Positions 1-55,402 of a DNA stretch of 55,402 bases are shown here, in pieces. The notes beneath the pieces were generated by a model, which was given only the letters and a program-made list of their open reading frames with translations, ran no database searches and was not told where the DNA came from. The stretch's first letter is position 1. The number at the start of each line of letters is the position of its first letter. Source of the stretch: a virus; the IMG/VR virus record IMGVR_UViG_3300045988_154458, positions 1 through 55,402 of that record. One strand, given 5' to 3'. Both the position numbers and the translations under genes were made by a program.

Positions 1-112
1 AATAAATATCTCTCATAGTAACCAAACATTCAATAAGTTCTTTTTTCTTAAATGTATCATAGTTTATTTCAACATTTTCGGTTGTTACTAATTTATATAA
101 ATAATTCATTCT
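1..112. repeat. Left copy of 112-bp terminal direct repeat (identical to 55291..55402): circular-assembly overlap or terminal redundancy
   Basis: Bases 1-112 (aataaatatctctcatag...ataattcattct) recur exactly as the last 112 bases. Unique length is 55,290 bp. The copy contains the first 36 codons of the gene annotated at 55100..55399. Confidence 0.9.
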
Positions 113-3977: not shown

Positions 3978-4185
3978 CTTTCTTCACCTCATAACATTTT
4001 ATTCTCTTTTCTAATTTTGCTATTTTTAAGTTTTGCTTATAAATTTTCTTTTCCAAATTTTTAGAATAATCTAACAGTATTGTATAATTTTTTTTCAAAG
4101 TAGTTATATCGTCTGCGATATAATTATTAATAACGACATTTTCATTATCTTCTATCAAATCGGGGAAAAAATCTTTGTAATTCAT
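3922..4185 (-). CDS. Hypothetical coiled-coil protein
   Basis: 87-aa ORF. ATGA overlap with 4182..4400. Confidence 0.55.
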   Translation of the reverse strand: MNYKDFFPDLIEDNENVVINNYIADDITTLKKNYTILLDYSKNLEKKIYKQNLKIAKLEKRIKCYEVKKDEKIHIETQDESSIFKIL

Positions 4186-4400
4186 AACACTTCAATAATA
4201 TAATCTTTTTCGTAATTCTTACAACCATACATATCTGTATAATAATCTTTATGTTCAGAAATACTACAATTATATCCTTTCTTTTTTAATTCTAGCAACA
4301 ATAATTTTTCTCCAAATTTATCATATATCTTCGAGTCAATATAACAATTTCGATACTTTTTTAAATTTCTATAAACATAGTCATCTAATTTTATTTTCAT
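4182..4400 (-). CDS. Hypothetical protein
   Basis: Track ORF runs to 4433. ATG 4400 follows AAGGAGAAGATAAAA. First gene after promoter 4424..4452. Confidence 0.55.
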   Translation of the reverse strand: MKIKLDDYVYRNLKKYRNCYIDSKIYDKFGEKLLLLELKKKGYNCSISEHKDYYTDMYGCKNYEKDYIIEVL

Positions 4401-4423
4401 TTTTATCTTCTCCTTACAATAAC

Positions 4424-4452
4424 AATATATCATATTATTATATATTAGTCAA
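4424..4452 (-). promoter_or_regulatory. Sigma-70-type promoter, conserved early family
   Basis: Minus strand reads ATTGACTAATATATAATAATATGATATATT. The -35 is at 4447-4452 and the -10 at 4424-4429, spacer 17. A second ATTAGTCAA copy at 4487-4495 suggests a tandem promoter. Confidence 0.55.
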
Positions 4453-4605
4453 TATATTTTAATAAATTTTATAATTATTTTAATATATTAGTCAAAATTC
4501 TTTCCTTTGCTATTTCATAATATTTTTCATAAATTCTAGTGACATTTGACAAAACATATCTAAACTATTTTCATTGTATAATGCAATCATTATCTCATCT
4601 CCTCT

Positions 4606-6078
4606 TTAATTTGCATATGACGATGCCATACCTTCTTTTATTTTAATATTCGACAAATTATAATAACCATTATTCTTCTTAATCTCCGTACCATATCTAG
4701 GTTTCAAATAATCTTCAATTTCCTTATTTTTAAGACCAATAGGTTTTATACCACTATCACGACACCATATCTGATAATTCGTCTTAAACGATTTAACAGA
4801 CAGTCTTTCTGTAACCAATAAACTATTATCAATATCACAACATTCTTCAACGAACTCTAATAATGTATTATTAACAACAACATATCTATCAAGGCCCATT
4901 TTCATTTTATCACTTTCAACAAACTTAAATCTTCTTTTTCTAAGTTTCAATAAGCTTTCAATGCAAAGTGAAACAATATATTCTCCTTCTTTTAACATCT
5001 TATCAACTAAATAAGGATCTTGCTTATCCTTTTCAACAACATGATTGCAAGGGATAATCATAAATCTTTGATACACCGCCTCTTCTTTCTTACCACTAAA
5101 TTTAGGAAAATCATTTGCCAAAAACCAAACTAAGCCATTAAAGATATATGAAAATGCCCCACGACCTTTAAATTCAATACTAATAGGATCTCCACCAACT
5201 AATTGCTTAAAAATACCCATATCACTAACTGTAGTGTATTGCATATCATTACTACCAACTAATCTCTTATTATATAATTCACTGGTACCAAAACGACTAT
5301 CATTCATCTTACTAAGTTCAATACTACTTGTATATTTAACACCGATTAAATGTGTTAACAACTTTTTTATCTGCGTCTTCCCACAATCTTTAGGGCCAAT
5401 CATTAAAATCGACTTTTTCGTAAGATAACCAGGTATATTCGACATAGCAAGACCCATTGCCTCCAACAAACATTCTCTCATTTCCAAGTCACCATCAACA
5501 AGCTCATTCAAATATTTTTCAAATACAAGTCCTTTTTCGCAATTTTCAAGAGGGATATAATTTATAGGAATCTGAATCGTAAACATTTTATCGGGTGTAT
5601 GCTCACTAAGTGTCATTGTATCTAAATTTAAGATACCATTTTTAAAATTAATACAATTCGCATCACTATTCAAATAATCATTATCAACATAAAAACTATC
5701 ATCCATAAGTAACAACTTATAAATTTCATCAATATCTTTCGACTTTTGAATGAGTTCAGGAATCCATTTTCTAATCATACCTTTAAACTCATTTTCAGTC
5801 ACATTCTGATAATAACCATTCTTATACATATATAATGTTATATTACCCAAATTTGAATCCTTAACGAACTTAAAATGCTCACTTTCTTTTATAATCTGCA
5901 CCAATTTAGGACAAACAACCTCAATATCATATCTATATTCAAATTCATTTTCATTTTTAATACTTATCGCACTCTTCGGTAATAAATATTGCAAGTTATT
6001 ACTATTGATAAAAGGTATGCTATCAAGTGGCATCATTGTCTTTTCTAACTCAATCGGAATATTTTTCTGTTTACCCAT
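4606..6078 (-). CDS. SF3 replicative helicase, D5 / P4-alpha (phage-plasmid primase C-terminal) family
   Basis: 490 aa. Walker A is MIGPKDCGKTQ. The segment before it, VFEKYLNELVDGDLEMRECLLEAMG, is typical of the D5_N/P4 primase-helicase family. No primase domain is present; a separate PrimPol is at 49715..50527. Confidence 0.8.
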   Translation of the reverse strand: MGKQKNIPIELEKTMMPLDSIPFINSNNLQYLLPKSAISIKNENEFEYRYDIEVVCPKLVQIIKESEHFKFVKDSNLGNITLYMYKNGYYQNVTENEFKGMIRKWIPELIQKSKDIDEIYKLLLMDDSFYVDNDYLNSDANCINFKNGILNLDTMTLSEHTPDKMFTIQIPINYIPLENCEKGLVFEKYLNELVDGDLEMRECLLEAMGLAMSNIPGYLTKKSILMIGPKDCGKTQIKKLLTHLIGVKYTSSIELSKMNDSRFGTSELYNKRLVGSNDMQYTTVSDMGIFKQLVGGDPISIEFKGRGAFSYIFNGLVWFLANDFPKFSGKKEEAVYQRFMIIPCNHVVEKDKQDPYLVDKMLKEGEYIVSLCIESLLKLRKRRFKFVESDKMKMGLDRYVVVNNTLLEFVEECCDIDNSLLVTERLSVKSFKTNYQIWCRDSGIKPIGLKNKEIEDYLKPRYGTEIKKNNGYYNLSNIKIKEGMASSYAN

Positions 6079-6083
6079 ATTTA

Positions 6084-6296
6084 TTATTCTCCTTCTACCG
6101 TTTCAAAAAAATCATCAATCTCATATTCATTATTCAAGGTCTTAACTATTGCAAGTGCCAGCACTTTCTTACACTTTTTATGGCCATTGAATATATTATA
6201 TAATGTTACTGGTGTATAATTAATCTGCCTACTCAACCATTCAACCGTTCTCCCATCCAACAAGTCAACATACTTATCTTTCTTAAACATGTACAT
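6084..6296 (-). CDS. Small helix-turn-helix DNA-binding protein
   Basis: 70 aa. VEWLSRQINYTPVTLYNIFNG resembles an HTH. First gene after promoter 6333..6361. Confidence 0.5.
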   Translation of the reverse strand: MYMFKKDKYVDLLDGRTVEWLSRQINYTPVTLYNIFNGHKKCKKVLALAIVKTLNNEYEIDDFFETVEGE

Positions 6297-6332
6297 TTTT
6301 GTATCGCCACCTTATCTTTCTAACGTAATTAA

Positions 6333-6361
6333 AATATATCATTTTTATTATTTGTTGTCAA
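6333..6361 (-). promoter_or_regulatory. Sigma-70-type promoter (TTGACA-N17-TATATT)
   Basis: Minus strand reads TTGACAACAAATAATAAAAATGATATATT. The -35 is at 6356-6361 and the -10 at 6333-6338. Confidence 0.6.
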
Positions 6362-6430
6362 TGAGAATTTTATAAAAATATAAAAAAATTATATTTACAA
6401 AATGGCTGGCAACCACTTATATATTAAAAA

Positions 6431-6810
6431 ATCGCCCTTTTTTATGCCCTTTTTTCCCTTAAATTTAAGATTTTTTCCCTTAATTGCCCTAAAAACTCCC
6501 TTAAATGTCCCTTAAGATTTGTTGAAAAATAAGGGAAAAATTGGTATTAAGGGATATTTTTATATAAAAATATTAATATTCTTACGTATGGAAAAATAAA
6601 AAATACATAATGTATATATGTATATGTGTATATATGGATTTTTACTCGCCCTTTTGTCCCTTTTTTGCCCTTAATGGCCTCCAAACCCTTATAAAATAAG
6701 GAAATCGTTAAGGGAGTTTTTTAAAATTTAAGGGAAAAAATGCCCATTTTAAGGGAGTTTTTGCTCTAAAAAGGGCGATTTAAGGGAGTTTTTTGAGTAA
6801 TTTAAGGGCA
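6431..6810. repeat. Helically phased CCCTT / AAGGG (TTAAGGGAGTTTTT) repeat field: candidate iteron origin or pac/TerS-binding region
   Basis: CCC of CCCTT/CCCTA starts at 6435, 6447, 6456, 6477, 6487, 6498, 6509, 6649, 6658, 6668 and 6686. GGG of AAGGG starts at 6533, 6551, 6712, 6732, 6753, 6773, 6784 and 6806. Spacings cluster at about 10-11 and 20-22 bp. An AT-rich TA/TG core lies at 6555-6640. Confidence 0.75.
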
Positions 6811-6825
6811 ATTTTTGATAATTTC

Positions 6826-6854
6826 TTGACTATTTGATTAAATTATGCTATAAT
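6826..6854 (+). promoter_or_regulatory. Near-consensus sigma-70 promoter for terS (TTGACT-N17-TGcTATAAT)
   Basis: TTGACT at 6826-6831, 17-nt spacer, TATAAT at 6849-6854 preceded by TGC. Confidence 0.7.
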
Positions 6855-6886
6855 TATTATAGTATTTTGAAAGAGAGTGATTTTTG

Positions 6887-7480
6887 ATGCCTAGAAGAAG
6901 AATTAATGATGATAACAGAGATAATGTTACTAAATTTATGGAAATCACCAATAAAAGAGGGAATATAAGTAATAACAAAGTTAGTAAAGAATATATGAGT
7001 GATCCTAATGTTAAAGAATTTAATAAAGCTGTTAGAGAACATTGTGTAAAAAAAACTTTTCATCCTAATATGGCTTTTCAAAGTGTTGAAACATTACAGA
7101 AAGATTTAGAGGAATTCTTTGATTTATGTGATAGAACTAACACTGTTCCGACTATAGTAGCTATTGCTTTATATCTTGGAGTTAATAGAGATACAATCTA
7201 CGCTCATGCCAATAATCCGAACTCTCCCGTTTCCGACGTTTTTAAAAATGTTATCTCATATTGTCATATGTCAATGGAAAATGGGGCTTTAGTTGGTAAG
7301 ATAAATCCAGTCACATACATCTTCTTAGGAAAGAACTATTTTGGGTTACGAGATGATAAAAATATCACAGTTACCCCAACTTCTGATAATGCTCAAATAA
7401 GTAGTAAATCGACTATGGATGCAATTCAGAAACAATTGGAAGAAGAAACGATACCTAATGCCGACTATCAAGTAAAATAA
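6887..7480 (+). CDS. terS: Terminase small subunit (gp3-like DNA-packaging protein family)
   Basis: LQKDLEEFFDLCDRTNTVPTIVAIALYLGVNRDTIY...KINPVTYIFLGKNYFGLRDDK matches the recalled pattern of Firmicute-phage small terminases (EEYF..C....PT..GLAL.LG.SR..L....IF.LKN.FGW.DK). ATG 6887 follows GAAAGAGAGTGA. Confidence 0.75.
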   Translation: MPRRRINDDNRDNVTKFMEITNKRGNISNNKVSKEYMSDPNVKEFNKAVREHCVKKTFHPNMAFQSVETLQKDLEEFFDLCDRTNTVPTIVAIALYLGVNRDTIYAHANNPNSPVSDVFKNVISYCHMSMENGALVGKINPVTYIFLGKNYFGLRDDKNITVTPTSDNAQISSKSTMDAIQKQLEEETIPNADYQVK

Positions 7481-7526
7481 AAACGACTATCGACTTTCAA
7501 AAAATTAAAACGACTATCGACTTTCA
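7480..7526. repeat. Two direct copies of AAAACGACTATCGACTTTCA immediately after the terS stop
   Basis: Copies at 7480-7499 and 7507-7526 (27-bp period). A third partial CGACTATC lies inside the last terS codons (7462-7469). Confidence 0.8.
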
Positions 7527-7828
7527 TATTTGAAAAATGAAATTTTATAAATAAATACATAAATAGTATTATAAAATTTTTGAAAATTAGTATCACTTTA
7601 TTAATTCGTTTTTGATATATAAACATATTTAAGCACATGTTTTAGGCGTTTATATATGAATTAATACAAATATACCAAGTCATATGAAAAAACCATGTAT
7701 AAGGCTAAAAACAGGCTTTAAAAAGGTGTGTATATATTAGATACTTAATATTATATACGTTTATATTGTTATTTTTACGCATTCTAAGACGTTTTTAATA
7801 AAATATGTATTATATATTAAATGATAAT

Positions 7829-7849
7829 AAAAAACGCCGTAACAGGCGT
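7829..7849 (-). terminator. Rho-independent terminator (second of two) for the 9910->7916 block
   Basis: Minus strand: ACGCC-TGTTAC-GGCGT followed by TTTTT. Confidence 0.5.
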
Positions 7850-7890
7850 CAAATAAGCATCAAATAGGCTTTATAATCATATAATAATAC

Positions 7891-7914
7891 AAAAAAAAGA
7901 CATTTTACATGTCT
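7891..7914 (-). terminator. Rho-independent terminator after 7916..8317
   Basis: Minus strand: AGACAT-GTAAA-ATGTCT followed by T8, starting 2 nt after the TAG stop. Confidence 0.7.
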
Positions 7915-7915
7915 T

Positions 7916-8317
7916 CTAATTCTTACTAGCGGCTGATATCACTATAACAAACGGTAAAAATAAAATTGTTATAAGTACCCAGAAAATACCCGATATAATG
8001 CTTTTATTATCGTTTTTTGCTTCTGTTTGATTCAATTGTCCCAGTTTTAGCGGTCTTGTGATTATGTATTCGTCAGGATTTTCTGGGAATATTTTATAAT
8101 ATGCTTTTAATTCTTGCATGTTTTCGGCCTCGTCTTCATATACAATATATGATTTTAGCGTTAACCCTCGCCATTCGTTGTGTAATTCAATTCTATTGTC
8201 TAAATTATAATAGAATTCTTTTAACTGTTCTAGTGATTTGAATTTTACCTCGTCAACAAGTTCATCGTTTCCTTTTGTCAATTCCATTTTAAAGTACATC
8301 AATAACACTTCCTTCAT
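7916..8317 (-). CDS. Hypothetical protein with C-terminal membrane anchor
   Basis: 133-aa ORF with C-terminal IISGIFWVLITILFLPFVIVISAA. ATG 8299 (AAGGAAG SD) is an alternative start. Confidence 0.55.
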   Translation of the reverse strand: MKEVLLMYFKMELTKGNDELVDEVKFKSLEQLKEFYYNLDNRIELHNEWRGLTLKSYIVYEDEAENMQELKAYYKIFPENPDEYIITRPLKLGQLNQTEAKNDNKSIISGIFWVLITILFLPFVIVISAASKN

Positions 8318-8594
8318 TGAAGTTTGTTATAGTTCTTTTAGTGGCTGTGTTTATTTCTTTTCTGTAAAATTTCCAATTGTACGGATCGGTTGTGTCTTGT
8401 ATTACTATTTCCTCAAATACAGATATACCTTTTTTGTTTTCAACGTAGTGTAACTCAGTGTTTGCCAATAGTGTTATTGCATCGTTTAAATTTGTGAAAA
8501 ATCGTTTTTCACTTGTTACAGTGTCAACGATTTCCATTTTTTTATTATAATAATTTACTTTTTTTGTATATTTTATTGGTTGAATTGATGTCAT
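8289..8594 (-). CDS. Hypothetical protein
   Basis: Track ORF runs to 8684. ATG 8594 follows GAGGCTAAATAAT and abuts the stop of 8596..8838. Confidence 0.55.
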   Translation of the reverse strand: MTSIQPIKYTKKVNYYNKKMEIVDTVTSEKRFFTNLNDAITLLANTELHYVENKKGISVFEEIVIQDTTDPYNWKFYRKEINTATKRTITNFNEGSVIDVL

Positions 8595-8595
8595 A

Positions 8596-8838
8596 TTATT
8601 TAGCCTCACTTTTTTGACAATCTTGTAATAATTCAATATATATGTTACAAATTGACATCGCATAATCACTTTTATATATATCAAATAAGTAGTTTATATC
8701 GTCGTATATAAAATCATAATTTGCCACACCGATTTTATATATAGGATCATTAATATTAATTTTTACTAATTCATGAGCTTTATTCATATTAATATTTTTT
8801 CTTAGTTCGTTAATAGTTGTTATATATCGTTCTTTCAT
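8596..8838 (-). CDS. Hypothetical protein (C-terminus ...SEAK)
   Basis: 80-aa ORF. Junction GAGGCTAAATAATATG is shared with its neighbours. Confidence 0.55.
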   Translation of the reverse strand: MKERYITTINELRKNINMNKAHELVKININDPIYKIGVANYDFIYDDINYLFDIYKSDYAMSICNIYIELLQDCQKSEAK

Positions 8839-8839
8839 A

Positions 8840-9148
8840 TTATTTAGCCTCGCTTTCTAATATTTCATTGAAATTATTTACATATTTACTATATGAATCA
8901 TTAAAATCTTCTTTAAACTTGGTTAACCTGTTGTCAAATAGCCTAATATCTTCTTTAAAATCTTTTAGCTTGTAATAGTGTAGATAATTTACAGATAGCC
9001 CACTATTTAAATCAATAATATCAAAATCATTAAATTCGTTTTTATATATTCCAAATAAATTAGTTTTTGTTTTAAGTATATAGCCTTTTACTTTAATAGC
9101 TTGTTTTTTATTATTTTTCATGACTAGTGTATAAAATTCTTTTTTCAT
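8840..9148 (-). CDS. Hypothetical protein (C-terminus ...SEAK)
   Basis: 102-aa ORF. Junction GAGGTAAAATAATATG lies upstream. Confidence 0.55.
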   Translation of the reverse strand: MKKEFYTLVMKNNKKQAIKVKGYILKTKTNLFGIYKNEFNDFDIIDLNSGLSVNYLHYYKLKDFKEDIRLFDNRLTKFKEDFNDSYSKYVNNFNEILESEAK

Positions 9149-9149
9149 A

Positions 9150-9377
9150 TTATTTTACCTCATTTCTTTTTATAATTTCATTTAGTTGTAATTCTGTTGT
9201 TATCAATGTATTAAAGCTTTTTTTATCGTCGTTTGTCTCTAAATTGTATTGAATATCATTGATTATTAAGTCTATTATGTTATGAGCTAATTTTAATTGC
9301 TCTAGCAATGTGAAATCATCTCTTATTTGAAAAGCTTCATTTAGTAATGTATCATCATTTATATATTGTTCTTTCAT
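9150..9377 (-). CDS. Hypothetical protein
   Basis: Track ORF runs to 9392. ATG 9377 follows GAGGTGTTATAAG and abuts the stop at 9379. Confidence 0.55.
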   Translation of the reverse strand: MKEQYINDDTLLNEAFQIRDDFTLLEQLKLAHNIIDLIINDIQYNLETNDDKKSFNTLITTELQLNEIIKRNEVK

Positions 9378-9378
9378 C

Positions 9379-9609
9379 TTATAACACCTCACTGACTTTA
9401 TTAAATGGTATTGCGTATAATTTACTTATTTCATCCATTTTATTATATTGTTTGCTTGGTACTAATAAGCTGATATATGTATTATAGTCATTGTTTTTTC
9501 TACCCTCAATATAGTATCCATTGAATTCTTTGTTATATCCTGTTATTTTTAAAGTATAATCATTTACTTTTATAGTATCGTTTACTTTTAATTCTTCAAA
9601 TTTTTTCAT
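9379..9609 (-). CDS. Hypothetical protein
   Basis: 76-aa ORF. First gene after promoter 9679..9707. Confidence 0.55.
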   Translation of the reverse strand: MKKFEELKVNDTIKVNDYTLKITGYNKEFNGYYIEGRKNNDYNTYISLLVPSKQYNKMDEISKLYAIPFNKVSEVL

Positions 9610-9678
9610 TTTCTTTTCCCTTTCGTCCGCTTTCGCGGTTGCTTTTTATACAAGAAGTATAACTTATTTTGTAATTTA

Positions 9679-9707
9679 ATTATATCATATTATTATGTAT
9701 TAGTCAA
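9679..9707 (-). promoter_or_regulatory. Sigma-70-type promoter, conserved early family (TTGACT-N17-TATAAT)
   Basis: Minus strand reads ATTGACTAATACATAATAATATGATATAAT. The -35 is at 9702-9707 and the -10 at 9679-9684. Confidence 0.6.
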
Positions 9708-9724
9708 TAGTTTTTTATTTTTTT

Positions 9725-9910
9725 TTAATATATTCCGTTTACCATTACTATTGTTGTATCATTACTACTTGTAGTACTTGTATTTTTTTCTATTTCTGTC
9801 ATTCTTATTTGCCATATTATTGCAAATATTGTTATAAAACATAAGCAAGCACTAAACAATAATACATCTTTTACCCATGATCTTAATTTTAATTTTTTTA
9901 CTTTTTTCAT
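9725..9910 (-). CDS. Small membrane protein
   Basis: 61 aa with the TM helix VLLFSACLCFITIFAIIWQI. GGAGGACAAA precedes ATG 9910. Confidence 0.55.
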   Translation of the reverse strand: MKKVKKLKLRSWVKDVLLFSACLCFITIFAIIWQIRMTEIEKNTSTTSSNDTTIVMVNGIY

Positions 9911-12373: not shown

Positions 12374-12448
12374 GCACTTGTAGTTTAAAGGCAAAATAAC
12401 AGACTCCAAATCTGTAAGATCAGGGTTCAAATCCTTGCAAGTGTGCCA
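12374..12448 (+). tRNA. trnW: tRNA-Trp (anticodon CCA)
   Basis: Hand fold: acceptor GCACTTG/CAAGTGT (G1-U72), D stem GTTT/AAAT, anticodon arm ACAGA-CTCCAAA-TCTGT, variable loop AAGAT, T arm CAGGG-TTCAAAT-CCTTG, discriminator G, encoded CCA. Confidence 0.8.
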
Positions 12449-13673: not shown

Positions 13674-15437
13674 ATGGATATAAAAGAATCTGTTGAAAAG
13701 CGTATCGAAAAAACAATAGAATTATTAAATGAATTAAAAGATAAAACTACTCTTACTTATTTACAAGGTTTACATAGTATAAAAGTTGATTGTGAATCGA
13801 TTAGTGATTTTGATAAAGCGTGTAAATATGCTACAATAATCATTGATTTGTTGCAACGAAATGTGATAAAATACGATGACACACCTAAAAATCAAGATGT
13901 GGTAAATGATATTTGGGTTACCGCATATGATACAAAAGCAAGGCAAGGTGATTTTGAATCTTTTTGTATAGCTATGGAATGGAATAGACCGATAAATAAT
14001 CAATTTTATTTGCCCAGAGCGAAGCTTTTGAAAAAACATGGTGTTATACAAGGTGTGCAAGACTTAATTGATGATAAATTGGATTTGTTGGTTTTGAATT
14101 TGCCCCCACGTATTGGGAAGTCGACAATTGGTTTGTTTTTGCAAGTTTTGTTAGGTAGTATGAACCCGCGTGGTAGTATAATTGGCGTAGGACATAGTGC
14201 GAGATTGATAGAATCGTTTTACAAAGAAGTTATAAAGCTTATGACTAGTGACGAATATAGATATAATAAAATTTTTCCAAATAACAAAATTGTCGATAAA
14301 TCAAGTGCTTATAACTTTATAGATATAAACACAACCAAACGTTTCCACACATATAACTATTTATCTATTGAAACAGGTGGTACTGGTAGTGTTGAAGCTA
14401 ACGTTCTGTTGTACTGCGATGATTTAGTTAAAGATGTTGAACAGGCGAATAATCCGGATAGATTGGAAAAGTTGTATTATAATTATACCGGTACAATCAA
14501 AGATAGAAAACTTATGAAGTTATGTAAAGATGGAGTTTATCGTCCATGTCCTGAAATTCATATTAACACTCCCTGGAGTTTATATGATGTTACAAGTCGT
14601 GTTGTCGCAAATGCGAAGATTGATGGGGCTATGGATAGAGTTAGAATCGTTTCAGTACCATGTTATGATGAAAATGGAAATAGTAATTTTGAATATGATT
14701 ATGGAAAAGGTTTTAATACAAAATATTATAAAGACATGGAACTTGCAGAAGATCCGGTAATATTTAGTGCAAAATATCTGATGACGCCTGTTGAGAGAGA
14801 TGGCTTGGTGTTTAATCGTGAAAATGTAAGTTTTTATTATGATTTACCTGGGGAAGAGCCAGATATGATTGTTGGCTATGCCGATGTTACACATGGTGGA
14901 GATGATTATTTTTCACTACCAATTGGATATGTGTATGGAACAGAAGTATATATAGAAGACGTCTTGTTTATAAATAAATTTGGTGGAGACGATGGTAGTA
15001 GACCATTTGTTAGAGATATAATTATAAGAAATAAAGCAACACGTGTTGGTGTTGAAAAGAATAATGGTGGAGATTTTTATTCAACGTTAATGCAACAAGA
15101 TTTAGCAGATGTTGGATATAGGTGTCACATAACAACACATAACGCACCAACGAATAAAGCAAAACGAGATAGAATTCTAGCGTGTCAAAATGAAATAAAA
15201 GGTATTGCTACCGAAAAGAATACATATAGAATATATTTTAAACATCCTGACACAATAAAAGGAAATATACAATATCAGACTGCTATGCAGAATTTATATA
15301 GTTGGAATCAAAATATAAATGCTCAGAAAAAACAGCATGATGATTTTCCAGATAGTTTAGCTGGAATGATAACGAATGTGTTAGGTGGTTTTAAAAATAC
15401 AGCAAAAGTTTATGATGCTAGTCGTTTTGGAATATAA
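13674..15437 (+). CDS. terL: Terminase large subunit
   Basis: 587 aa. Walker A-like LVLNLPPRIGKST. Size and position immediately upstream of the portal gene fit terL. GGGTGATTAT precedes the ATG. Confidence 0.9.
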   Translation: MDIKESVEKRIEKTIELLNELKDKTTLTYLQGLHSIKVDCESISDFDKACKYATIIIDLLQRNVIKYDDTPKNQDVVNDIWVTAYDTKARQGDFESFCIAMEWNRPINNQFYLPRAKLLKKHGVIQGVQDLIDDKLDLLVLNLPPRIGKSTIGLFLQVLLGSMNPRGSIIGVGHSARLIESFYKEVIKLMTSDEYRYNKIFPNNKIVDKSSAYNFIDINTTKRFHTYNYLSIETGGTGSVEANVLLYCDDLVKDVEQANNPDRLEKLYYNYTGTIKDRKLMKLCKDGVYRPCPEIHINTPWSLYDVTSRVVANAKIDGAMDRVRIVSVPCYDENGNSNFEYDYGKGFNTKYYKDMELAEDPVIFSAKYLMTPVERDGLVFNRENVSFYYDLPGEEPDMIVGYADVTHGGDDYFSLPIGYVYGTEVYIEDVLFINKFGGDDGSRPFVRDIIIRNKATRVGVEKNNGGDFYSTLMQQDLADVGYRCHITTHNAPTNKAKRDRILACQNEIKGIATEKNTYRIYFKHPDTIKGNIQYQTAMQNLYSWNQNINAQKKQHDDFPDSLAGMITNVLGGFKNTAKVYDASRFGI

Positions 15438-37468: not shown

Positions 37469-37545
37469 GGGTAGATACTCAAGCGGATTAAGAGGTTGGT
37501 CTGCAACACCAATATTCATGAGTTCGAATCTCATTCTGCCCTCCA
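37469..37545 (+). tRNA. trnC: tRNA-Cys (anticodon GCA)
   Basis: Hand fold: acceptor GGGTAGA/TCTGCCC (one G-U), D arm CTC(A)-AGCGGATTA-(A)GAG, anticodon arm TTGGT-CTGCAAC-ACCAA, variable loop TATTC, T arm ATGAG-TTCGAAT-CTCAT, discriminator T, encoded CCA. Confidence 0.85.
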
Positions 37546-37927: not shown

Positions 37928-38737
37928 TTAAAACCCTAATTCAATTTTATATTGAATTGGGGTTTTATATTTTAAAGAATAACTTGGTCTTTCATTGTTA
38001 TAATAGTAAATATATTCTTCAATAAGTTTAGGAACATCTTTGCAATGTTTTAAATTAAAATCAACAATTAATTCTTCTTTAATCCAACCATTTAATGATT
38101 CATTAACTGGATTATCAGTTGGTGTTCCTGCTCGACTCATTGAACGAGATATGTTATAATTTTCTAGAAGCTTATTATAAGCTTTAGACGAATAAACTGA
38201 ACCTTGATCTGTGTGAAGAATAATCAAATCATCAGTTTGTTCTTTTTTTATGCGGTTTAATACTTGATTTAATCCATCATAATATGACCTTGTATCTCCT
38301 TTTCTAGATACTAAACCATATCCAACTATTTCTTTATTCCAAGCATCAAAATACATCGTTAATTCATAATATGTTCTGCCAACCCAAAATGCAGTCATAT
38401 CTGAAACTATTACTTCAAATGGTCTTGATAAATATTTCCATCCATTCCATACTAGATTATTAAATTTTTCATGTTCTTCATCAGGTTTCTTCCATTGATA
38501 ATGTTTCCCTTTTGACTTAATACCTTCATATTTACAACATAAATGAACATGGTTATCAGACCAAACTATACCATAATGTAATCTTGCATAAGCATTAATC
38601 CATCTATATCCATGTGATGGATGCTTTTCGTGTATCTCTTTTATTAATTTTATATCGGATTGTCTTGATATCATTTTTTCTGTTGGGTGCTCCTGTCTGT
38701 ATTTCCATTTATAATATCCAGACCTACTAATAGACAT
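37928..38737 (-). CDS. IS3-family transposase OrfB (DDE/rve), expressed as an OrfAB fusion by -1 frameshift
   Basis: The orfB frame is open upstream to the A7 site and reads ...YGVKLLCEYMSISRSGYYKWKYRQ. DDE-type motifs include HTDQGSVY. Confidence 0.85.
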   Translation of the reverse strand: MSISRSGYYKWKYRQEHPTEKMISRQSDIKLIKEIHEKHPSHGYRWINAYARLHYGIVWSDNHVHLCCKYEGIKSKGKHYQWKKPDEEHEKFNNLVWNGWKYLSRPFEVIVSDMTAFWVGRTYYELTMYFDAWNKEIVGYGLVSRKGDTRSYYDGLNQVLNRIKKEQTDDLIILHTDQGSVYSSKAYNKLLENYNISRSMSRAGTPTDNPVNESLNGWIKEELIVDFNLKHCKDVPKLIEEYIYYYNNERPSYSLKYKTPIQYKIELGF

Positions 38738-39222: not shown

Positions 39223-40476
39223 TCACTTCAAATTGAGTTCTTTTATACTATCACGTAGTTTATATTTTTTCTTTTGAATACTAGGAACAGAATAATTTAA
39301 TTTTGTTGAAATCCATTTTTCACTATATCCATCTACATAAAATAACTTTCCAATAATATAATCAATACTATTTTTATCAGTAATATTAAGCACAATATTA
39401 TCATACACTTCAATAGTCATACCTCTATATAATTTTTTATTTTTATTATCAACAAAGAAACTGGCAATATAGTTTAATAATATACCTAACAAAACAGAAA
39501 TAATTAGTGATATATTACTAGGTACAGTTATTCTATTTAAACAATAATACGAAATGTTAGAAATAACAAAGCATGATAATGCTGTTTTCATATGAAATGG
39601 TTTTCCAAATAATTTTTTATTCAACCAAAAACTACATAATATAATTACACATTCTATAAAAGTATCATTTAGAAAAGCTATAAATAAAATGACAAATACT
39701 GTAAATATATTCCAAAGTAAATACAACGGTATGTATATCATATTTGTTAATTTATCTACTTTATTTTTACTTTTATTATTTTGATATGCGTTTTGCAACT
39801 TTTTCGGCAAACTCTTTAATAAAGTCTGTAGGCGCAAAAATGAACCAACTACCATATCCCATAGCGAATTACCTCCCATCTGAAAAAATAATTTATAAGC
39901 AATTACAGATAACATTATATAATCAAAATTTAGTATAATATTAGCTATTCCACTGTGTATATAATTTTTACAATTAATAAAAGGAATATTTCTAATAATA
40001 ACACTAATAAATTGAAATAATAAATTAATTATACAATATAACCAATAGTTGCTTATGTGATGTTTACACAAGTTGTTTTTCTTCACAAATTTAATATATA
40101 CAATTTCTAACATAAATAACCATAATAAATCTGTAAAAATAAATATAAAAGGCATATTATAAGTATATTTTAAAAATTGAGATATTATACTTAAAGGCAT
40201 AGTTATTAATGTAAATATCTTCATTGTCTTACTGTTGTCGGCACATGATATACTTAAAATAATATATGTGTATAAAGTTAATGTTATCCCATACCATAAC
40301 ATTTGTAAATGATATTTATTGAAAAACAAATCAATCGATATTAAGATTTTATTATTATCATCTAACCCAAAATAATTTAAACCACATATTTTTAAAATAA
40401 ATATAATGCCTAATATTATAAAATAAGTAGATAATGTACTTGACATTATCTTATCAAGATCTTTCTTCATAACCAA
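39223..40476 (-). CDS. Polytopic membrane protein with C-terminal sigma-70 region-4-like HTH
   Basis: 417 aa with about ten hydrophobic segments by eye. C-terminus ...SIDYIIGKLFYVDGYSEKWISTKLNYSVPSIQKKKYKLRDSIKEL. The last two codons and the stop lie inside the IS terminal repeat. Confidence 0.6.
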   Translation of the reverse strand: MVMKKDLDKIMSSTLSTYFIILGIIFILKICGLNYFGLDDNNKILISIDLFFNKYHLQMLWYGITLTLYTYIILSISCADNSKTMKIFTLITMPLSIISQFLKYTYNMPFIFIFTDLLWLFMLEIVYIKFVKKNNLCKHHISNYWLYCIINLLFQFISVIIRNIPFINCKNYIHSGIANIILNFDYIMLSVIAYKLFFQMGGNSLWDMVVGSFLRLQTLLKSLPKKLQNAYQNNKSKNKVDKLTNMIYIPLYLLWNIFTVFVILFIAFLNDTFIECVIILCSFWLNKKLFGKPFHMKTALSCFVISNISYYCLNRITVPSNISLIISVLLGILLNYIASFFVDNKNKKLYRGMTIEVYDNIVLNITDKNSIDYIIGKLFYVDGYSEKWISTKLNYSVPSIQKKKYKLRDSIKELNLK

Positions 40477-42255: not shown

Positions 42256-43971
42256 TTATAATCCAACCTTTTCCATTTTATTTTTAACTTTAAGATCTAT
42301 TTCCATTAAATCAACTGATGTACATTTACCACTCATTATTTTATCAAGTGTCTTTGTAGCCCATTCATTATCGTTTAATTTCTCTCTAACTTTCATAATA
42401 TTTTCACAAATATTTTTTATATCTTCTTCATCAGAATCTTCATGTTGTTCTTGTTTTACAACTTCTTTTTTTATCTCTGCTTTCTTTTGTTCTGGAATAT
42501 ATACAGGAACTTTTGGAAGTTCACTTTTCTCAGTTTCTTCTGGAACTAAAGTTTCGTCATCACCATTTTTTGGTGTAAAGTTTTTATAAAACCATGTTCT
42601 AAATGCCATTGTTGATGCCCCTGACACAGCTTTGTCCATTGTATCACTACCTTGACCTATTGTAGTATATTTTTTTACTACACCAGTATCTATATCAGTA
42701 AATGATGCAGTACATTTTACTGTAGCTAAATGTATAGGAGGTCTACCACTAGGCTTTATACAATCCTTATCAAATGAAATAACATCATTAACATCAAATG
42801 CAAAATCTAAACCAACTTTTATAGATTCTTCTTGAACTGCATCGTAGATTTGATTAATACTATAATACTCACCTCCACCTAAATTGGATGGCAATTCTTT
42901 ATCAAGAATGAATCCCCTTTTTCTTATATTTTTTCTAAATTCATTTAGTTTTTTTGATAATTTTGCATAAGCAGTTTCTTCCATATTATCATCTCCTTTT
43001 TTCGACTCTTTAATTTTATTAACTAATTCTTCATTTTGTGACATAGATTGTTGTAATCTTGTTGCTAATTCAAATTCACTATTTTCTTTTTCTTTCAACT
43101 TATCTTCTAATTCTTGTTTAGTCATGTTTACCTCATCTCCTTTTACACTATCTATATTATCATATTGTACTTTATTAGTCAATGCTTTTTTACGTTCTTT
43201 TATTATTTTTATCAAATCTGCTTTTTTGGTTTTCTTCTCAATATCTATATTAAGTTCCTTTGCTAAATCAAGAAGTTCTTCTTTTTTATATTTCTCTAGC
43301 GTTCTGCCGCCAATAAATTTAATATATTTTTCATTAGCAAAGTCAATATACCATTGTTTATTTATATCATTTATTGTACATTCATTTCCATTATCAACAA
43401 TTGGATCGGTAGGACAATTAGCAAGTGAATCTCTTCTTCCATCTGGTTTTACTTTAATTATAGTTCCACGTGGAACATTACCTGCATAAATTCTATTATT
43501 TCTTTGAAGTTCTATATCACCATCTGGTGATTCTTGGACACATTTTTCATAAGTCGATCCTAAATGTGATATAATTTGAAATCTAAATATATCATTACAT
43601 TTATTTATTGTTTCTTCAATTGGAATATCAAATAACAATTTTTTTAGAAGTGCTTCACTTACGATACTCATTGAATTACTTTTTAAACTTTTTTTATAAG
43701 AATATTTAAATTTCTTTTCTTCTTTATTCCATTTGAACTTATGCTCTCCACGAGTTAATTCACCCCCTTTATAATGCACTTCATAATTATTATTACCAGT
43801 TTGAACTATTTCTGCGTAATTATTTACGTCTCGCATTACAATTTTTACAATTTTATCTTCTTCCAATTCAAGTCCAGTTAATTTTTCCCAATTATGTAAT
43901 ACATCATGAGCTTGTTCTTTATATTCTTTTTCAATTGTGTACATCACGGCATCTGTGTTTGCTGATACCAT
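42256..43971 (-). CDS. Family-B DNA polymerase C-terminal part (motif C region + thumb) fused in frame, via an HeH/SAP-like linker, to an ERF-family single-strand annealing protein
   Basis: The N-terminus MVSANTDAVMY aligns with PolB motif C (YxDTDS). LEKYKKEELLDLAKELNIDIEKKTKKADLIKII is the HeH motif. From M330 (ATG 42984, SD AAGGAG 8 nt upstream), AYAKLSKKLNEF...YYSINQIYDAV...DKAVSGASTMAFRTWF resembles P22 Erf. The frame stays open upstream to 44139. Confidence 0.6.
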   Translation of the reverse strand: MVSANTDAVMYTIEKEYKEQAHDVLHNWEKLTGLELEEDKIVKIVMRDVNNYAEIVQTGNNNYEVHYKGGELTRGEHKFKWNKEEKKFKYSYKKSLKSNSMSIVSEALLKKLLFDIPIEETINKCNDIFRFQIISHLGSTYEKCVQESPDGDIELQRNNRIYAGNVPRGTIIKVKPDGRRDSLANCPTDPIVDNGNECTINDINKQWYIDFANEKYIKFIGGRTLEKYKKEELLDLAKELNIDIEKKTKKADLIKIIKERKKALTNKVQYDNIDSVKGDEVNMTKQELEDKLKEKENSEFELATRLQQSMSQNEELVNKIKESKKGDDNMEETAYAKLSKKLNEFRKNIRKRGFILDKELPSNLGGGEYYSINQIYDAVQEESIKVGLDFAFDVNDVISFDKDCIKPSGRPPIHLATVKCTASFTDIDTGVVKKYTTIGQGSDTMDKAVSGASTMAFRTWFYKNFTPKNGDDETLVPEETEKSELPKVPVYIPEQKKAEIKKEVVKQEQHEDSDEEDIKNICENIMKVREKLNDNEWATKTLDKIMSGKCTSVDLMEIDLKVKNKMEKVGL

Positions 43972-44096
43972 TTCAAGGGTTGGTATTTCTTTTAAATCAT
44001 AAATAAGTTGTAGAATAAAACATTGCGCTGTAGTGCATATACTAAATCCTTGTAAGTTGTCGTATAAAGCATTGAAACTAGCTCTTAAAGTTCCAG

Positions 44097-44324
44097 TTAA
44101 GTATACGCATTTAAAGGTAACTTTAAACCTAGTTTTAAATCATCGTTTGTAAGACTAAGAGGTTTAAGAAATTCATCAGGTAATTCACCATGTTTTGCTT
44201 TCATTCTCATTGAAAGTAAATCAGTATAAGCTTGTTTATCTTTTTGATTTCTACTTGAATAACCATATAATCTGACTAGGTTAGGATATAGTGAACCTAC
44301 ATCCCAGTTCTCTAAAACACGCAT
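44097..44324 (-). CDS. Family-B DNA polymerase fragment (motif A and start of motif B)
   Basis: WDVGSLYPNL matches DxxSLYPS (motif A). KLPLNAYT followed by a stop is a truncated K...N[SA].YG (motif B). The sequence continues in the -1 frame as ...TGTLRASFNALYDNLQGFSICTTAQ. Confidence 0.65.
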   Translation of the reverse strand: MRVLENWDVGSLYPNLVRLYGYSSRNQKDKQAYTDLLSMRMKAKHGELPDEFLKPLSLTNDDLKLGLKLPLNAYT

Positions 44325-44963: not shown

Positions 44964-44976
44964 TTTAAATCATCAC

Positions 44977-45252: not shown

Positions 45253-45265
45253 CTCCTTCATATTT

Positions 45266-49641: not shown

Positions 49642-49716
49642 TGTGTTAGATGAGACATATCATCTACACAGCAATTATCTCATTTCAACCCACGTTAAGG
49701 TGGGTCTTTTTTTTTT
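49642..49716 (+). ncRNA. Candidate sRNA of about 75 nt (promoter + two hairpins + terminator)
   Basis: Hairpin AGATGA-GACATA-TCATCT (49648-49665). Single-stranded CAATTATCTCAT (49672-49683). Terminator ACCCAC-GTTAAG-GTGGGT (49688-49705) followed by C and T10. No ORF. Confidence 0.55.
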
Positions 49717-50527
49717 AATCATCATTTAATTTTATAAATAAACAAGTTCCTCTATCTCTTTCAAATATTTTATTAACTTTATATTTAATTACCCTTTCTG
49801 GAAAGGGTTTTTCTAATATATTTTCATTAAAATTGAATGCTAAACATAATATTTCATCAGAATCTAATCTAGTATTATAATATAAATTTGTTATATACAT
49901 GAATAATTGATTATCTCTATCACCACATTCAACTGAAATAGGCTTTTTATAAGGCTCTTTTTTTATATCAGATTTTAAATTCGCATGTTCTAGTATATAT
50001 CGTTTAAGTTCAAGCGGTATTGACTTGGGATTACAATTATTTGGAGTAACAAATTCATATTTTTTTCCATTTATAATACTAGGTTCAACTACGATATATC
50101 CATCAGTTCTGCAATCTATACCTGGATAATCTTTAAATATATTAGAATTATTAGCAACATTTTTAAGATCATCATCGGTTTTAAATATCATATGCTGCCC
50201 ACCGCTTGGAGTTTCTTGGATACATTCCAATGTTTTACAATATGTATTAATACCACCTAAATTTTTTATCAATTTATTATAGTTATCAACACCATTTTTT
50301 TCTTTATCATGTTTGTCTAAATCAAGTACAAAAATATTATTAGGCGTACATGGTAAACCCCAATTACAATCAGGGCAATGTGTATACCAATATAGAACTT
50401 GCATATAATCAGATGAACAATCATTCATCCAATTTTCTATCATTGGTTTCTTTCCATTTGATTCTATGGGAAATATTTTTAAACCTTTATTTATATAATT
50501 ATCTTTTATGTATTCCCATGTGTTCAT
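49715..50527 (-). CDS. Primase-polymerase (PrimPol / bifunctional DNA primase-polymerase N-terminal domain) protein
   Basis: VLDLDKHD (DxD), ETPSGGQHMIF (sGG.H) and IDCRTDGYIVVEPS match the recalled AEP PrimPol motifs. Confidence 0.7.
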   Translation of the reverse strand: MNTWEYIKDNYINKGLKIFPIESNGKKPMIENWMNDCSSDYMQVLYWYTHCPDCNWGLPCTPNNIFVLDLDKHDKEKNGVDNYNKLIKNLGGINTYCKTLECIQETPSGGQHMIFKTDDDLKNVANNSNIFKDYPGIDCRTDGYIVVEPSIINGKKYEFVTPNNCNPKSIPLELKRYILEHANLKSDIKKEPYKKPISVECGDRDNQLFMYITNLYYNTRLDSDEILCLAFNFNENILEKPFPERVIKYKVNKIFERDRGTCLFIKLNDD

Positions 50528-55399: not shown

Positions 55400-55402
55400 T
55401 CT
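55291..55402. repeat. Right copy of the 112-bp terminal direct repeat
   Basis: Identical to 1..112. Confidence 0.9.

What the first reader, a model, noticed from the sequence alone, without database searches (positions are those of the whole stretch)
6431..6810. Helically phased CCCTT/AAGGG repeat field between the SF3 helicase operon and terS: iteron origin or pac site
Seen in sequence:
- In a genome where C/G triplets are rare, 19 copies of CCCT(T/A)/AAGGG occur within 380 bp. Many extend to TTAAGGGAGTTTTT.
- They form four orientation blocks: CCCTT x7 at 6435-6513, AAGGG x2 at 6531-6553, CCCTT x4 at 6649-6690, and AAGGG x6 at 6710-6808.
- The blocks flank an AT-rich alternating TA/TG core (6555-6640).
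- Centre-to-centre spacings are 9-12 or 18-22 bp, that is one or two helical turns, so the sites lie on one face of the DNA.
- The field lies between the divergent promoter of the HTH + D5/P4-type helicase operon (6333-6361) and the near-consensus terS promoter (6826-6854).

Established knowledge: P4-type primase-helicases bind iterated short repeats at ori. SPP1-type small terminases bind phased repeats (pacL/pacR) around the terS promoter.

Inference: this is an origin with a DNA-unwinding element, the packaging recognition site, or both.
Basis: partly seen in the sequence, partly recalled or inferred. Interest (0 to 1): 0.7.

Follow-up and report, generated by a model that had tools for sequence, protein, structure and literature searches.

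The report
Phage replication origin built of iterons
The repeat field is real and is most likely the phage's replication origin, a set of short binding sites for the neighbouring helicase arranged around an easily melted centre, the same design as in staphylococcal pathogenicity islands and not a packaging signal.

Summary
There are 19 CCCT/AGGG sites in 380 bp against 0.67 expected, in four orientation blocks around an 87% AT core. The two outer arrays are phased at 10.4 bp, and the field lies between two near-consensus divergent promoters.

Seventeen non-redundant relatives keep the same layout between terS and the 70-aa-protein + helicase operon, but the repeated word changes by lineage (CCCTTA, GCCCAA, GTCCCA, GACCCTA, ATCCCC, ATCCCAT, ATCCCTA). 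The word tracks the helicase (AUC 0.98). It tracks TerS (0.72) and the 70-aa protein (0.83) less well, and both occur nearly identical beside different words.

Where the helicase is replaced by a VapE-like or DUF927/Cch-type helicase, the words change completely while TerS and the 70-aa protein stay homologous. Distant helicase relatives carry the same layout just 3' of the helicase gene, next to parAB or sigma-factor genes and never next to terS.

The helicase is a sequence and fold homologue of the SaPI5 self-loading initiator PriRep5. The field meets the published SaPI origin rules except for its position.

Verdict: an iteron origin, a new member of a known kind. The pac reading is not supported. 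An invariant 13-bp element within the field remains unexplained.

The parts
6435..6513 (.). Outer left iteron array: seven sites in CCCT orientation, centres at 6436, 6448, 6457, 6478, 6488, 6499 and 6510, phased at 10.4 bp.
   Evidence: equivalent arrays with lineage-specific words in relatives
6522..6534 (+). Conserved 13-bp element TTGAAAAATAAGG, the only exact copy in the genome. It is conserved whatever the iteron word or helicase family. Its reader is unknown.
   Evidence: 34 hits in 11.6 kb of fields against 3 in 219.5 kb outside
6531..6553 (.). Inner left iteron pair (AAGGG x2), pointing the opposite way to the inner right set.
6555..6644 (.). AT-rich core, the probable DNA-unwinding element. 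It is 86.7% AT and includes a 27-nt alternating purine-pyrimidine run at 6610-6636, built of (TATATATG)n units whose copy number differs between near-identical strains.
   Evidence: the same kind of core is present in distant relatives
6649..6672 (.). Inner right iterons (CCCTT x3, about 9-10 bp apart).
6686..6701 (.). Palindrome CCCTTATAAAATAAGG, at the position of the second copy of the 13-bp element. It also carries the fourth CCCTT of this block.
6710..6808 (.). Outer right iteron array: six AAGGG sites phased at 10.4 bp, plus a degenerate GCCCA site at about 6742-6746.
6333..6361 (-). Promoter of the operon encoding the 70-aa protein and the helicase (TTGACA, 17-nt spacer, TATATT, with TG).
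6826..6854 (+). terS promoter (TTGACT, 17-nt spacer, TATAAT, with TG), 18 bp after the last iteron.
4606..6078 (-). 490-aa SF3 helicase with D5_N, DUF5906 and Pox_D5 domains: the proposed initiator that reads the iterons.
6084..6296 (-). 70-aa HTH-like protein, conserved next to every field of this phage group. It does not track the iteron word.
6887..7480 (+). Small terminase-like protein (PF16677, phrog_606). It is a neighbour of the field, not its reader.
49715..50527 (-). Prim-Pol type primase, the likely priming partner, because the helicase has no primase domain.
   Evidence: PF09250, E 4.6e-26; the functional link is an inference

Best explanation
The field is the phage's origin of replication, of the type described for SaPI/PICI elements.

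Proposed mechanism (inferred, not shown here):
- The 490-aa SF3 helicase encoded 220 bp away binds the short iterons (core CCCTT, about 10-12 bp with flanks).
- The inner sites on the two sides of the AT-rich core point in opposite directions. This places one hexamer on each side.
- The 90-bp core, with its (TA/TG)n tract, melts and the helicase loads itself.
- The separate Prim-Pol primes, and forks leave in both directions along the two divergent transcription arms.
- The helically phased outer arrays probably raise local initiator occupancy or wrap the DNA. Because they end 18 bp from the terS -35 hexamer and about 75 bp from the rep -35 hexamer, they may also couple initiator level to transcription.

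Shown here: the anatomy; the homology of the helicase to a proven self-loading initiator; the co-variation of word and helicase; and the association of this layout with helicase genes in other contexts.

Inferred: binding, melting, the two-hexamer geometry, the priming partner and any promoter coupling.
For: 1. Anatomy matches the published SaPI origin rules: penta- or hexanucleotide iterons, an AT-rich centre with iterons on both sides, and at least two per side pointing in opposite directions (PMC9371898; window anatomy).

2. The helicase's best PDB sequence match is SaPI5 PriRep5, 7OLA/7OM0 (E 6.6e-21; identity of the entries confirmed). The AF2 model (pLDDT 81.7) has 7OLA as its top Foldseek hit (E 1e-23, TM 0.65-0.71). 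The alignment is about 90 columns longer with the chains that include the C-terminal domain.

3. All 17 non-redundant relatives with the terS / field / 70-aa protein / helicase arrangement keep the layout but use seven different words. The word group tracks the helicase (AUC 0.978) better than the 70-aa protein (0.830) or TerS (0.721).
- TerS segments that are 95-100% identical occur beside different words, and TerS N-termini only 19% identical occur beside the same word.
- The 70-aa proteins of L013 and L014 are 96% identical but sit beside different words.
- WIN and L056 have 97% identical helicases, a field that is about 95% identical over the DNA segment containing it and keeps its CCCTT sites, and TerS only 65% identical overall (N-terminal two-thirds swapped).

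4. Natural swap: phages with homologous TerS (47-58% identity) and 70-aa protein (52-70%) but a VapE-like or DUF927+Cch helicase keep the layout with wholly different words (GTCAAC, CGTTGC, GGGAAC).

5. Helicase relatives at 30-38% identity in Ruminococcus and Oscillospiraceae contigs have the same layout immediately 3' of the helicase gene, which is the SaPI position. The layout is array, palindrome, inner pair, AT + alternating Pu-Py core, inner pair, palindrome, array. The next genes are parA/parB or a sigma factor, never terS.

6. Among near-identical strains the CCCTT cores are almost invariant. Changes fall in flanking bases and in the copy number of the core microsatellite.

7. Published precedent in a phage: Enterococcus phage Abitsa has a PriRep5-like helicase and seven 10-bp iterons around an AT-rich region (PMC13517437).
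Against: - There is no direct evidence of binding, melting or initiation; everything is comparative.
- The field lies upstream of the rep operon, not directly downstream of rep as in SaPIs.
- Word-helicase co-variation could partly reflect linkage and shared descent rather than function. However, the 70-aa gene lies between the field and the helicase gene and does not track the word.
- One same-word pair (L058/L059) has helicases that are only 41-58% identical in the variable domains.
- The cumulative GC-skew minimum lies at about 8-10 kb rather than at 6.5 kb, although skew here follows transcription direction.
- terS is kept next to the field in every member of this phage group, and this reading does not explain why.
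Confidence: 0.8

Rival explanations
1. It is the pac site. TerS binds the phased CCCTT repeats on both sides (like pacL/pacR of SPP1) and the terminase makes the first cut in the AT-rich centre. A weaker version is that origin and pac overlap in the same field.
For: terS starts 76 bp after the field and its promoter abuts the last iteron. The terS-field adjacency is kept in all about 25 relatives of this phage group, even when the helicase family changes. terS lies about 6 kb from terL, so it is tied more closely to this region than to the packaging operon. The outer arrays are helically phased, as expected for wrapping around an oligomeric ring.
Against: - The word does not track TerS in any 30-aa window. 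TerS segments that are 96-100% identical occur beside different words.
- The TerS group L009/L019/L069/L071/L014/L061 (72-94% mutual identity) sits beside three different words.
- WIN and L056 share the field but differ over the N-terminal two-thirds of TerS.
- The same layout occurs next to helicase homologues with no terS nearby.
- In L018 a 297-aa ORF lies between terS and the field, and the field stays with the rep operon.
- From general knowledge, for the P22/Sf6-type TerS family (PF16677) the known pac site of P22 lies inside the terS gene. This was not tested here.
Confidence: 0.08
2. It is mainly a transcriptional control region: an operator array through which the 70-aa HTH protein (or the helicase) represses or times the two divergent promoters, with no role in replication.
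For: The field lies between two strong divergent promoters. A small HTH-like gene is the first gene of the leftward operon. The last iteron is 18 bp from the terS -35 hexamer.
Against: - Nineteen sites over 380 bp with an 87% AT centre is far more than operators need.
- The nearest iteron is about 75 bp from the rep -35 hexamer.
- The word does not track the 70-aa protein (L013/L014 are 96% identical beside different words).
- The same layout occurs 3' of helicase genes, where there is no divergent promoter pair.
Confidence: 0.05
3. It is a partition centromere (parC/tubC-like repeat arrays) of a plasmid-like prophage.
For: Centromeres of type II and III partition systems are also phased short repeats in two blocks (general knowledge). 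In distant relatives L036 and L049 the field lies just upstream of parA-parB.
Against: No ParA, ParM, TubZ or ParB-like protein was found among the window proteins scanned, although not every small ORF was scanned. In the window the neighbours are a helicase and terS. The word follows the helicase across contexts.
Confidence: 0.02

Closest known systems
SaPI/PICI replication origins served by self-loading Rep helicases (SaPI1, SaPIbov1, SaPI5 PriRep5)
   Same: - Short iterons with a 5-6 nt core flank an AT-rich centre.
- At least two iterons on each side point in opposite directions.
- The initiator is an SF3 helicase encoded next to the origin, and this one is a sequence and fold homologue of PriRep5, including the C-terminal domain.
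- The word is lineage-specific and matches the helicase.
   Different: - The field lies upstream of the rep operon, between rep and terS, not directly downstream of rep.
- It has 19-20 sites against the 6-12 reported for SaPIs, arranged in two tiers: inner pairs plus helically phased outer arrays.
- It carries an extra invariant 13-bp element in each half.
- The core contains a long alternating purine-pyrimidine microsatellite.
- The carrier is a complete 55-kb phage with its own polymerase and Prim-Pol, not a satellite.
- The word tracks the N-terminal about 70 residues at least as well as the C-terminal domain, whereas SaPI Reps read iterons with the C-terminal winged helix.
Enterococcus phage Abitsa (Efquatrovirus) putative origin
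   Same: It is a phage with a PriRep5-like self-loading helicase and repeats around an AT-rich region, proposed as the origin by analogy (PMC13517437).
   Different: Abitsa is described with seven 10-bp repeats, and there too no experiment was done. No DNA similarity to any deposited phage was found for the 5-kb stretch (4000-9000) searched here.
Phage P4 ori/crr bound by the alpha primase-helicase
   Same: A D5/P4-type helicase-initiator binds short iterated sites in direct and inverted orientation (general knowledge).
   Different: P4 needs a second repeat region (crr) about 4.5 kb away, whereas the window has no second cluster of the word. P4 alpha carries its own primase domain, whereas here Prim-Pol is a separate gene.
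SPP1 pac (pacL-pacC-pacR)
   Same: Repeated protein-binding boxes with A-tracts flank a central region at the terS promoter (general knowledge).
   Different: The repeats here do not co-vary with TerS, and they occur without terS in relatives. The TerS here belongs to a different family (PF16677).
SCCmec Cch/Cch2 helicase origins
   Same: They are self-loading SF3 helicases (DUF927 or D5-type) that bind short direct repeats in the neighbouring intergenic region (PMC7581432). A DUF927+Cch-HTH helicase occupies the equivalent slot in relatives L116 and L119.
   Different: Only three iterons are described there, and there is no two-sided array around an AT-rich core.

Membership tests
SaPI/PICI-type iteron origin | The adjacent gene encodes an SF3 self-loading Rep helicase homologous to SaPI Reps. 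| tested here: met
   phmmer hit to 7OLA PriRep5, E 6.6e-21. Foldseek top hit 7OLA, TM 0.65-0.71, including the C-terminal domain. Pfam domains D5_N, DUF5906 and Pox_D5.
SaPI/PICI-type iteron origin | Multiple short (penta- or hexanucleotide core) iterons. | tested here: met
   19 CCCT/AGGG sites against 0.67 expected per 380 bp. This is more than the 6-12 cited for SaPIs.
SaPI/PICI-type iteron origin | An AT-rich region near the centre with iterons on both sides. | tested here: met
   The core 6555-6644 is 86.7% AT and in the least stable 0.4% of windows. Nine sites lie to its left and ten to its right.
SaPI/PICI-type iteron origin | [quoted passage not shown] | tested here: met
   AAGGG x2 at 6531-6553 on the left and CCCTT x3 at 6649-6672 on the right. 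These positions are conserved across relatives.
SaPI/PICI-type iteron origin | The origin lies immediately downstream of the rep ORF. | tested here: not met
   In the window the field is 5' of the rep operon, about 140 bp beyond the start of the 70-aa gene. The feature is met in the distant relatives L029, L030, L036, L038 and L049.
SaPI/PICI-type iteron origin | Rep binds only its cognate iterons (specificity pairs). | tested here: inconclusive
   Comparative support only. The word tracks the helicase (AUC 0.978) and changes completely when the helicase family is swapped. No binding assay is possible with these tools.
SaPI/PICI-type iteron origin | Replication initiates at the site. | not testable with these tools
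   This needs marker-frequency analysis, 2D gels or a plasmid replication assay.
SPP1-type pac site | The repeats are the recognition sites of the cognate TerS, so the two should co-vary. | tested here: not met
   TerS AUC is 0.721. Segments 96-100% identical occur beside different words, and same-word pairs are as low as 19% identical in the TerS N-terminus.
SPP1-type pac site | The location overlaps the terS promoter or the 5' end of terS. | tested here: met
   The field ends 18 bp before the terS -35 hexamer. However, an ORF is inserted between them in L018.
SPP1-type pac site | The terminase cuts within the central region (pacC). | not testable with these tools
   This needs virion DNA termini. 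The contig is a circular assembly with a 112-bp overlap, so its ends carry no information.
P4 ori/crr | A second cis-acting repeat region (crr) elsewhere in the genome carrying the same iterons. | tested here: not met
   There is no second cluster of the word. The next densest 380-bp window has 4 sites without the extended consensus.
Partition centromere (parC/tubC) | A cognate partition NTPase and adaptor are encoded alongside. | tested here: inconclusive
   None was found among about 37 window proteins scanned, but small ORFs were not all scanned. parAB lies beside the field only in the distant relatives L036 and L049.

The most novel reading that the evidence does not exclude
The field may be a modular origin scaffold, with three features beyond the SaPI model:
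- A fixed frame is shared by phages that use three different SF3 initiator families (D5_N/DUF5906, VapE-like, DUF927/Cch). The frame consists of two copies of an invariant 13-bp element TTGAwAwATAAGG, a conserved ACG-rich block, a purine-pyrimidine microsatellite core, and set positions for inner pairs and outer arrays.
- All 15-20 iteron words are rewritten in concert whenever the initiator is exchanged.
- The invariant element would be read by the conserved 70-aa HTH protein, acting as a common origin accessory factor.

In addition, in the D5-type branch the word would be specified by the beta-rich N-terminal 70 residues of the helicase, not (or not only) by the C-terminal winged helix that SaPI Reps use.
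Probability: 0.3. Interest if true: 0.55.

Novelty: new member of a known kind. Interest (0 to 1): 0.35.

Why it matters
- It places the origin of a group of uncultured, low-GC gut and rumen phages at a defined 380-bp element and names the probable initiator. This helps with annotation, with predicting replication direction, and with building replicons or origin-based interference ('PER'-type resistance) for these hosts.
- The set of natural variants amounts to a ready-made specificity table: seven words for one helicase family, and three helicase families on one scaffold. It could be used to map how SF3 self-loading initiators read DNA.
- It corrects the attractive but unsupported idea that phased repeats beside terS mark pac.

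Tried and rejected
- Megablast of 4000-9000 against deposited phages gave no match, so no annotated relative could be used.
- An Rfam search of 6000-7200 at E <= 1 found nothing, and no terminators were found. An RNA-element reading was therefore dropped.
- A single-protein search of IMG/VR found only near-identical contigs. Alignments (A1, A3) were needed to reach informative relatives.
- The original SaPI origin papers (PMC1964853, PMC3804134) are not held. The SaPI rules are cited from the summary in PMC9371898.
- The 13-bp element with 2 mismatches is not specific in this AT-rich genome (28 matches found, 25.8 expected). Only the criterion of at most 1 mismatch across loci is informative. 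I found no co-variation of its variants with the types of the 70-aa protein, but this was checked by eye only.
- GC skew does not pinpoint the origin because it follows transcription direction.
- I did not model the helicase N-terminal domain on its own or search its fold, so its nature is unknown.
- A partition reading was considered after ParA/ParB turned up beside the field in L036 and L049. It was rejected for the window because no partition genes were found.

Full report
**1. The observation**

The window is a 55.4-kb, 27.8% GC phage genome. Its 112-bp terminal overlap shows it was assembled as a circle, so the genome is about 55.29 kb.

In 6431-6810 there are 11 CCCT sites (10 CCCTT, 1 CCCTA) and 8 AAGGG sites. 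That is 19 sites, against a genome-wide mean of 0.67 per 380 bp, and the seven densest 380-bp windows all overlap this region.

The site consensus is about AAAAAn(T/G)CCCTTAAAT. The 14-mer TTAAGGGAGTTTTT occurs three times, plus once as its reverse complement.

Spacings are 9-12 or 18-22 bp, except 24 and 26 bp at the two orientation switches and 98 bp across the core. The two outer arrays are phased at 10.4 bp (R = 0.94; P about 0.02 and 0.01). The inner right array is spaced at about 9.3 bp.

The core 6555-6644 is 86.7% AT and lies among the 0.4% least stable 90-bp windows. It contains the longest alternating purine-pyrimidine run of the genome, 27 nt against 15 nt for the next longest.

Both divergent promoters are found, each matching 11 of 12 consensus positions with an extended TG. 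No Rfam family and no terminator is present.

**2. The neighbours**

- Leftward operon: a 70-aa HTH-like protein (phrog_925, weak match) and a 490-aa SF3 helicase with D5_N, DUF5906 and Pox_D5 domains and no primase domain.
- Rightward: a TerS-like protein (PF16677, phrog_606).
- terL (13674-15437) and the portal gene are 6 kb further on, beyond a minus-strand gene cluster.
- Elsewhere in the genome: a Prim-Pol, an SF2 helicase, a YqaJ-type exonuclease and a DNA polymerase interrupted by an HNH endonuclease gene.

**3. Relatives keep the layout but change the word**

Homologues of the helicase were collected. Loci were then fetched from assemblies, IMG/VR, GTDB genomes and metagenomes.

Seventeen non-redundant loci with helicases 53-97% identical all have the arrangement terS, then a 390-610 bp spacer (about 1.5 kb in L018, where a 297-aa ORF is inserted), then the 70-aa protein and the helicase. 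Every spacer carries a repeat field with the same plan:
- an outer array;
- a conserved 13-bp element;
- an inner pair;
- a T-tract and an ACG-rich block;
- an alternating Pu-Py, AT-rich core;
- an inner pair of the opposite orientation;
- a second copy of the 13-bp element;
- an outer array;
- the terS promoter.

The repeated word differs by lineage:

| Word | Loci |
|---|---|
| CCCTTA | window, L056, L018 |
| TTGCCCAA | L007 |
| TGTCCCA | L008, L057 |
| TATCCCTA | L058, L059 |
| TGACCCTA | L009, L019, L069 |
| ATCCCC | L012, L013, L071, L064 |
| TATCCCAT | L014, L061, L062 |

**4. Which protein follows the word?**

Pairs of loci were scored as 'same word' or 'different word', and pairwise identity was compared for each protein.

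| Protein | AUC | Discordant cases |
|---|---|---|
| Helicase | 0.978 | No same-word pair below 60% identity |
| 70-aa protein | 0.830 | L013/L014 96% identical beside different words |
| TerS | 0.721 | Different-word pairs up to 92% identical overall and 96-100% in every 30-aa window; same-word pairs down to 19% identity in the N-terminus |

Mosaics make the point without statistics:
- One TerS type (72-94% mutual identity) sits beside three different words.
- One type of the 70-aa protein (79-96% mutual identity) also sits beside three different words.
- The window and L056 have 97% identical helicases and a field that is about 95% identical at the DNA level with its CCCTT sites retained, yet the N-terminal two-thirds of TerS has been exchanged, giving 65% identity overall.
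- In L018 an ORF of 297 aa lies between terS and the field, and the field stays with the rep operon.

The 70-aa gene lies between the field and the helicase gene. The joint inheritance of field and helicase across a discordant middle gene therefore argues for functional coupling rather than simple linkage. This is an inference.

Within the closely related ATCCC[C/AT/TA] group the ATPase core is 98-100% identical. There the word tracks residues 1-70 (AUC 0.93-0.95) more strongly than the C-terminal 90 residues (0.72-0.88, few pairs).

**5. A natural swap of the initiator**

A search seeded with a TerS alignment found phages with homologous TerS (47-58% identity) and a homologous 70-aa protein (52-70%) but no homologue of this helicase.

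The gene in its place is a VapE-like helicase (L111, L114) or a DUF927 + Cch-HTH helicase (L116). L110 and L119 share the repeat words of L114 and L116, but their helicase genes were not scanned. The field keeps its plan, including the 13-bp elements. The words become GTCAAC, CGTTGC or GGGAAC, none of which contains CCC.

**6. The same plan without terS**

Helicase relatives at 30-38% identity occur on Ruminococcus, Oscillospiraceae and other contigs (GC 36-44%). They have the same plan immediately 3' of the helicase gene: array, palindrome, inner pair, AT + alternating TG/CA/CG core, opposite inner pair, palindrome, array. The next genes are parA-parB (L036, L049) or a small ORF plus a sigma-70-type factor (L029, L030). 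The only constant partner of this kind of field is an SF3 helicase gene.

**7. What the helicase is**

Its best solved relative by sequence is SaPI5 PriRep5 (7OLA/7OM0, E 6.6e-21, residues 62-391).

An AlphaFold2 model built from 22 homologues (pLDDT 81.7, pTM 0.79) has these parts:
- a beta-rich N-terminal domain (residues 12-93);
- the D5_N and ATPase domains;
- a helical C-terminal domain ending in a beta-hairpin.

Foldseek puts 7OLA first (E 1e-23, TM 0.65-0.71). Alignments are longer with the chains that include the C-terminal domain.

The paper describing that structure summarises SaPI origins as follows (PMC9371898):
- six to twelve penta- or hexanucleotide iterons lie just downstream of rep;
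- an AT-rich region lies at the centre;
- at least two iterons on each side point in opposite directions;
- the iterons are read by the winged helix of the Rep C-terminal domain;
- binding and melting need no ATP;
- two hexamers probably load, one on each side.

The window meets each anatomical rule except position: it lies upstream of the operon.

A phage example has been proposed by the same analogy, Enterococcus phage Abitsa (PMC13517437). SCCmec Cch2 binds short direct repeats next to its gene (PMC7581432).

**8. Interpretation**

The best-supported reading is an iteron origin served by the neighbouring self-loading helicase (confidence about 0.8).

Proposed mechanism (inferred):
- The inner, oppositely oriented iterons position two hexamers.
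- The weak (TA/TG)n core melts.
- The Prim-Pol primes.
- The phased outer arrays add avidity or wrap the DNA, and may couple initiator occupancy to the two promoters.

The pac reading (about 0.08 as sole or joint function) fails the co-variation test, but it can only be closed with termini data. Transcription-only and centromere readings are unlikely.

**9. What remains unexplained**

- The 13-bp element TTGAwAwATAAGG. With at most one mismatch it occurs 34 times in 11.6 kb of fields and 3 times in 219.5 kb outside them. It is kept whatever the word or helicase family. The conserved 70-aa protein is the obvious candidate reader, but this is a guess.
- Why terS, separated from terL, always sits next to the origin in this phage group.
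- Whether the helicase N-terminal domain contributes to word recognition.
- The core microsatellite changes length between near-identical strains: +24 bp, three TATATATG units, in L010, and +2 bp in L055. The distance between the inner sites ranges from 81 to 143 bp across relatives. The spacing between the two sides is therefore not tightly fixed.

**10. Novelty and score**

This is a new member of a known kind, the SaPI/PICI-type iteron origin, in an uncultured phage lineage. It has variant features: an upstream position, two tiers of sites, an invariant accessory element, and a scaffold shared by three helicase families. Interest is 0.35. It is solid and useful, but it would not surprise a specialist.

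Noticed in passing
window 6522-6534 and 6686-6701; L007-L119 fields: An invariant 13-bp element TTGAwAwATAAGG occurs once in each half of the origin. It is more than 200-fold enriched in the fields and is conserved even where the iteron word and the helicase family differ. Its reader is unknown.
   Followed up: partly
window 6610-6636; L010, L055: The (TATATATG)n tract in the origin core varies in length between otherwise 99% identical phages (+24 bp and +2 bp), like a microsatellite.
   Followed up: partly
window 6887-7480 versus 13674-15437: The terS-like gene stands alone with its own promoter, about 6 kb from terL. A minus-strand gene cluster (7468-9910) and tRNA-Trp (12374-12448) lie in between. 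The terS-origin adjacency is conserved across the whole phage group.
   Followed up: partly
window 42256-46129 (- strand): The DNA polymerase appears split. The N-terminal part is at 45266-46129 and the C-terminal part at 42256-43971, where it is fused to an endonuclease VII-like stretch. An HNH endonuclease gene (44325-44963) lies between the two parts.
   Followed up: no
window 39223-40476 (- strand): A 417-aa protein has an AgrB-like domain (PF04647, E 6e-9), hinting at a quorum-sensing peptide-processing function encoded by a phage.
   Followed up: no
window 37928-38737 (- strand): An rve-family transposase (IS element) sits at the junction between the late and early arms, next to tRNA-Cys (37469-37545).
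   Followed up: no
window 51885-52622 (- strand): A 245-aa ORF matches only the C-terminal half of RtcB RNA ligase (profile positions 217-425 of 426). An HNH-like ORF lies nearby at 51074-51610, so this may be another interrupted gene.
   Followed up: no
L018 2248-3141: A 297-aa ORF is inserted between terS and the origin field in an 88%-identical relative. From its sequence it looks like an HNH/NUMOD-type homing endonuclease; this was not scanned.
   Followed up: no
L036 2213-3209; L049 5338-7437: In Ruminococcus-type elements the equivalent iteron field lies between the helicase gene and a parA-parB operon. There it may serve as both origin and partition or promoter region.
   Followed up: partly
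window 1-112 and 55291-55402: There is an exact 112-bp terminal direct repeat. The window is a circularly closed assembly of a complete genome, so its ends say nothing about packaging termini.
   Followed up: yes
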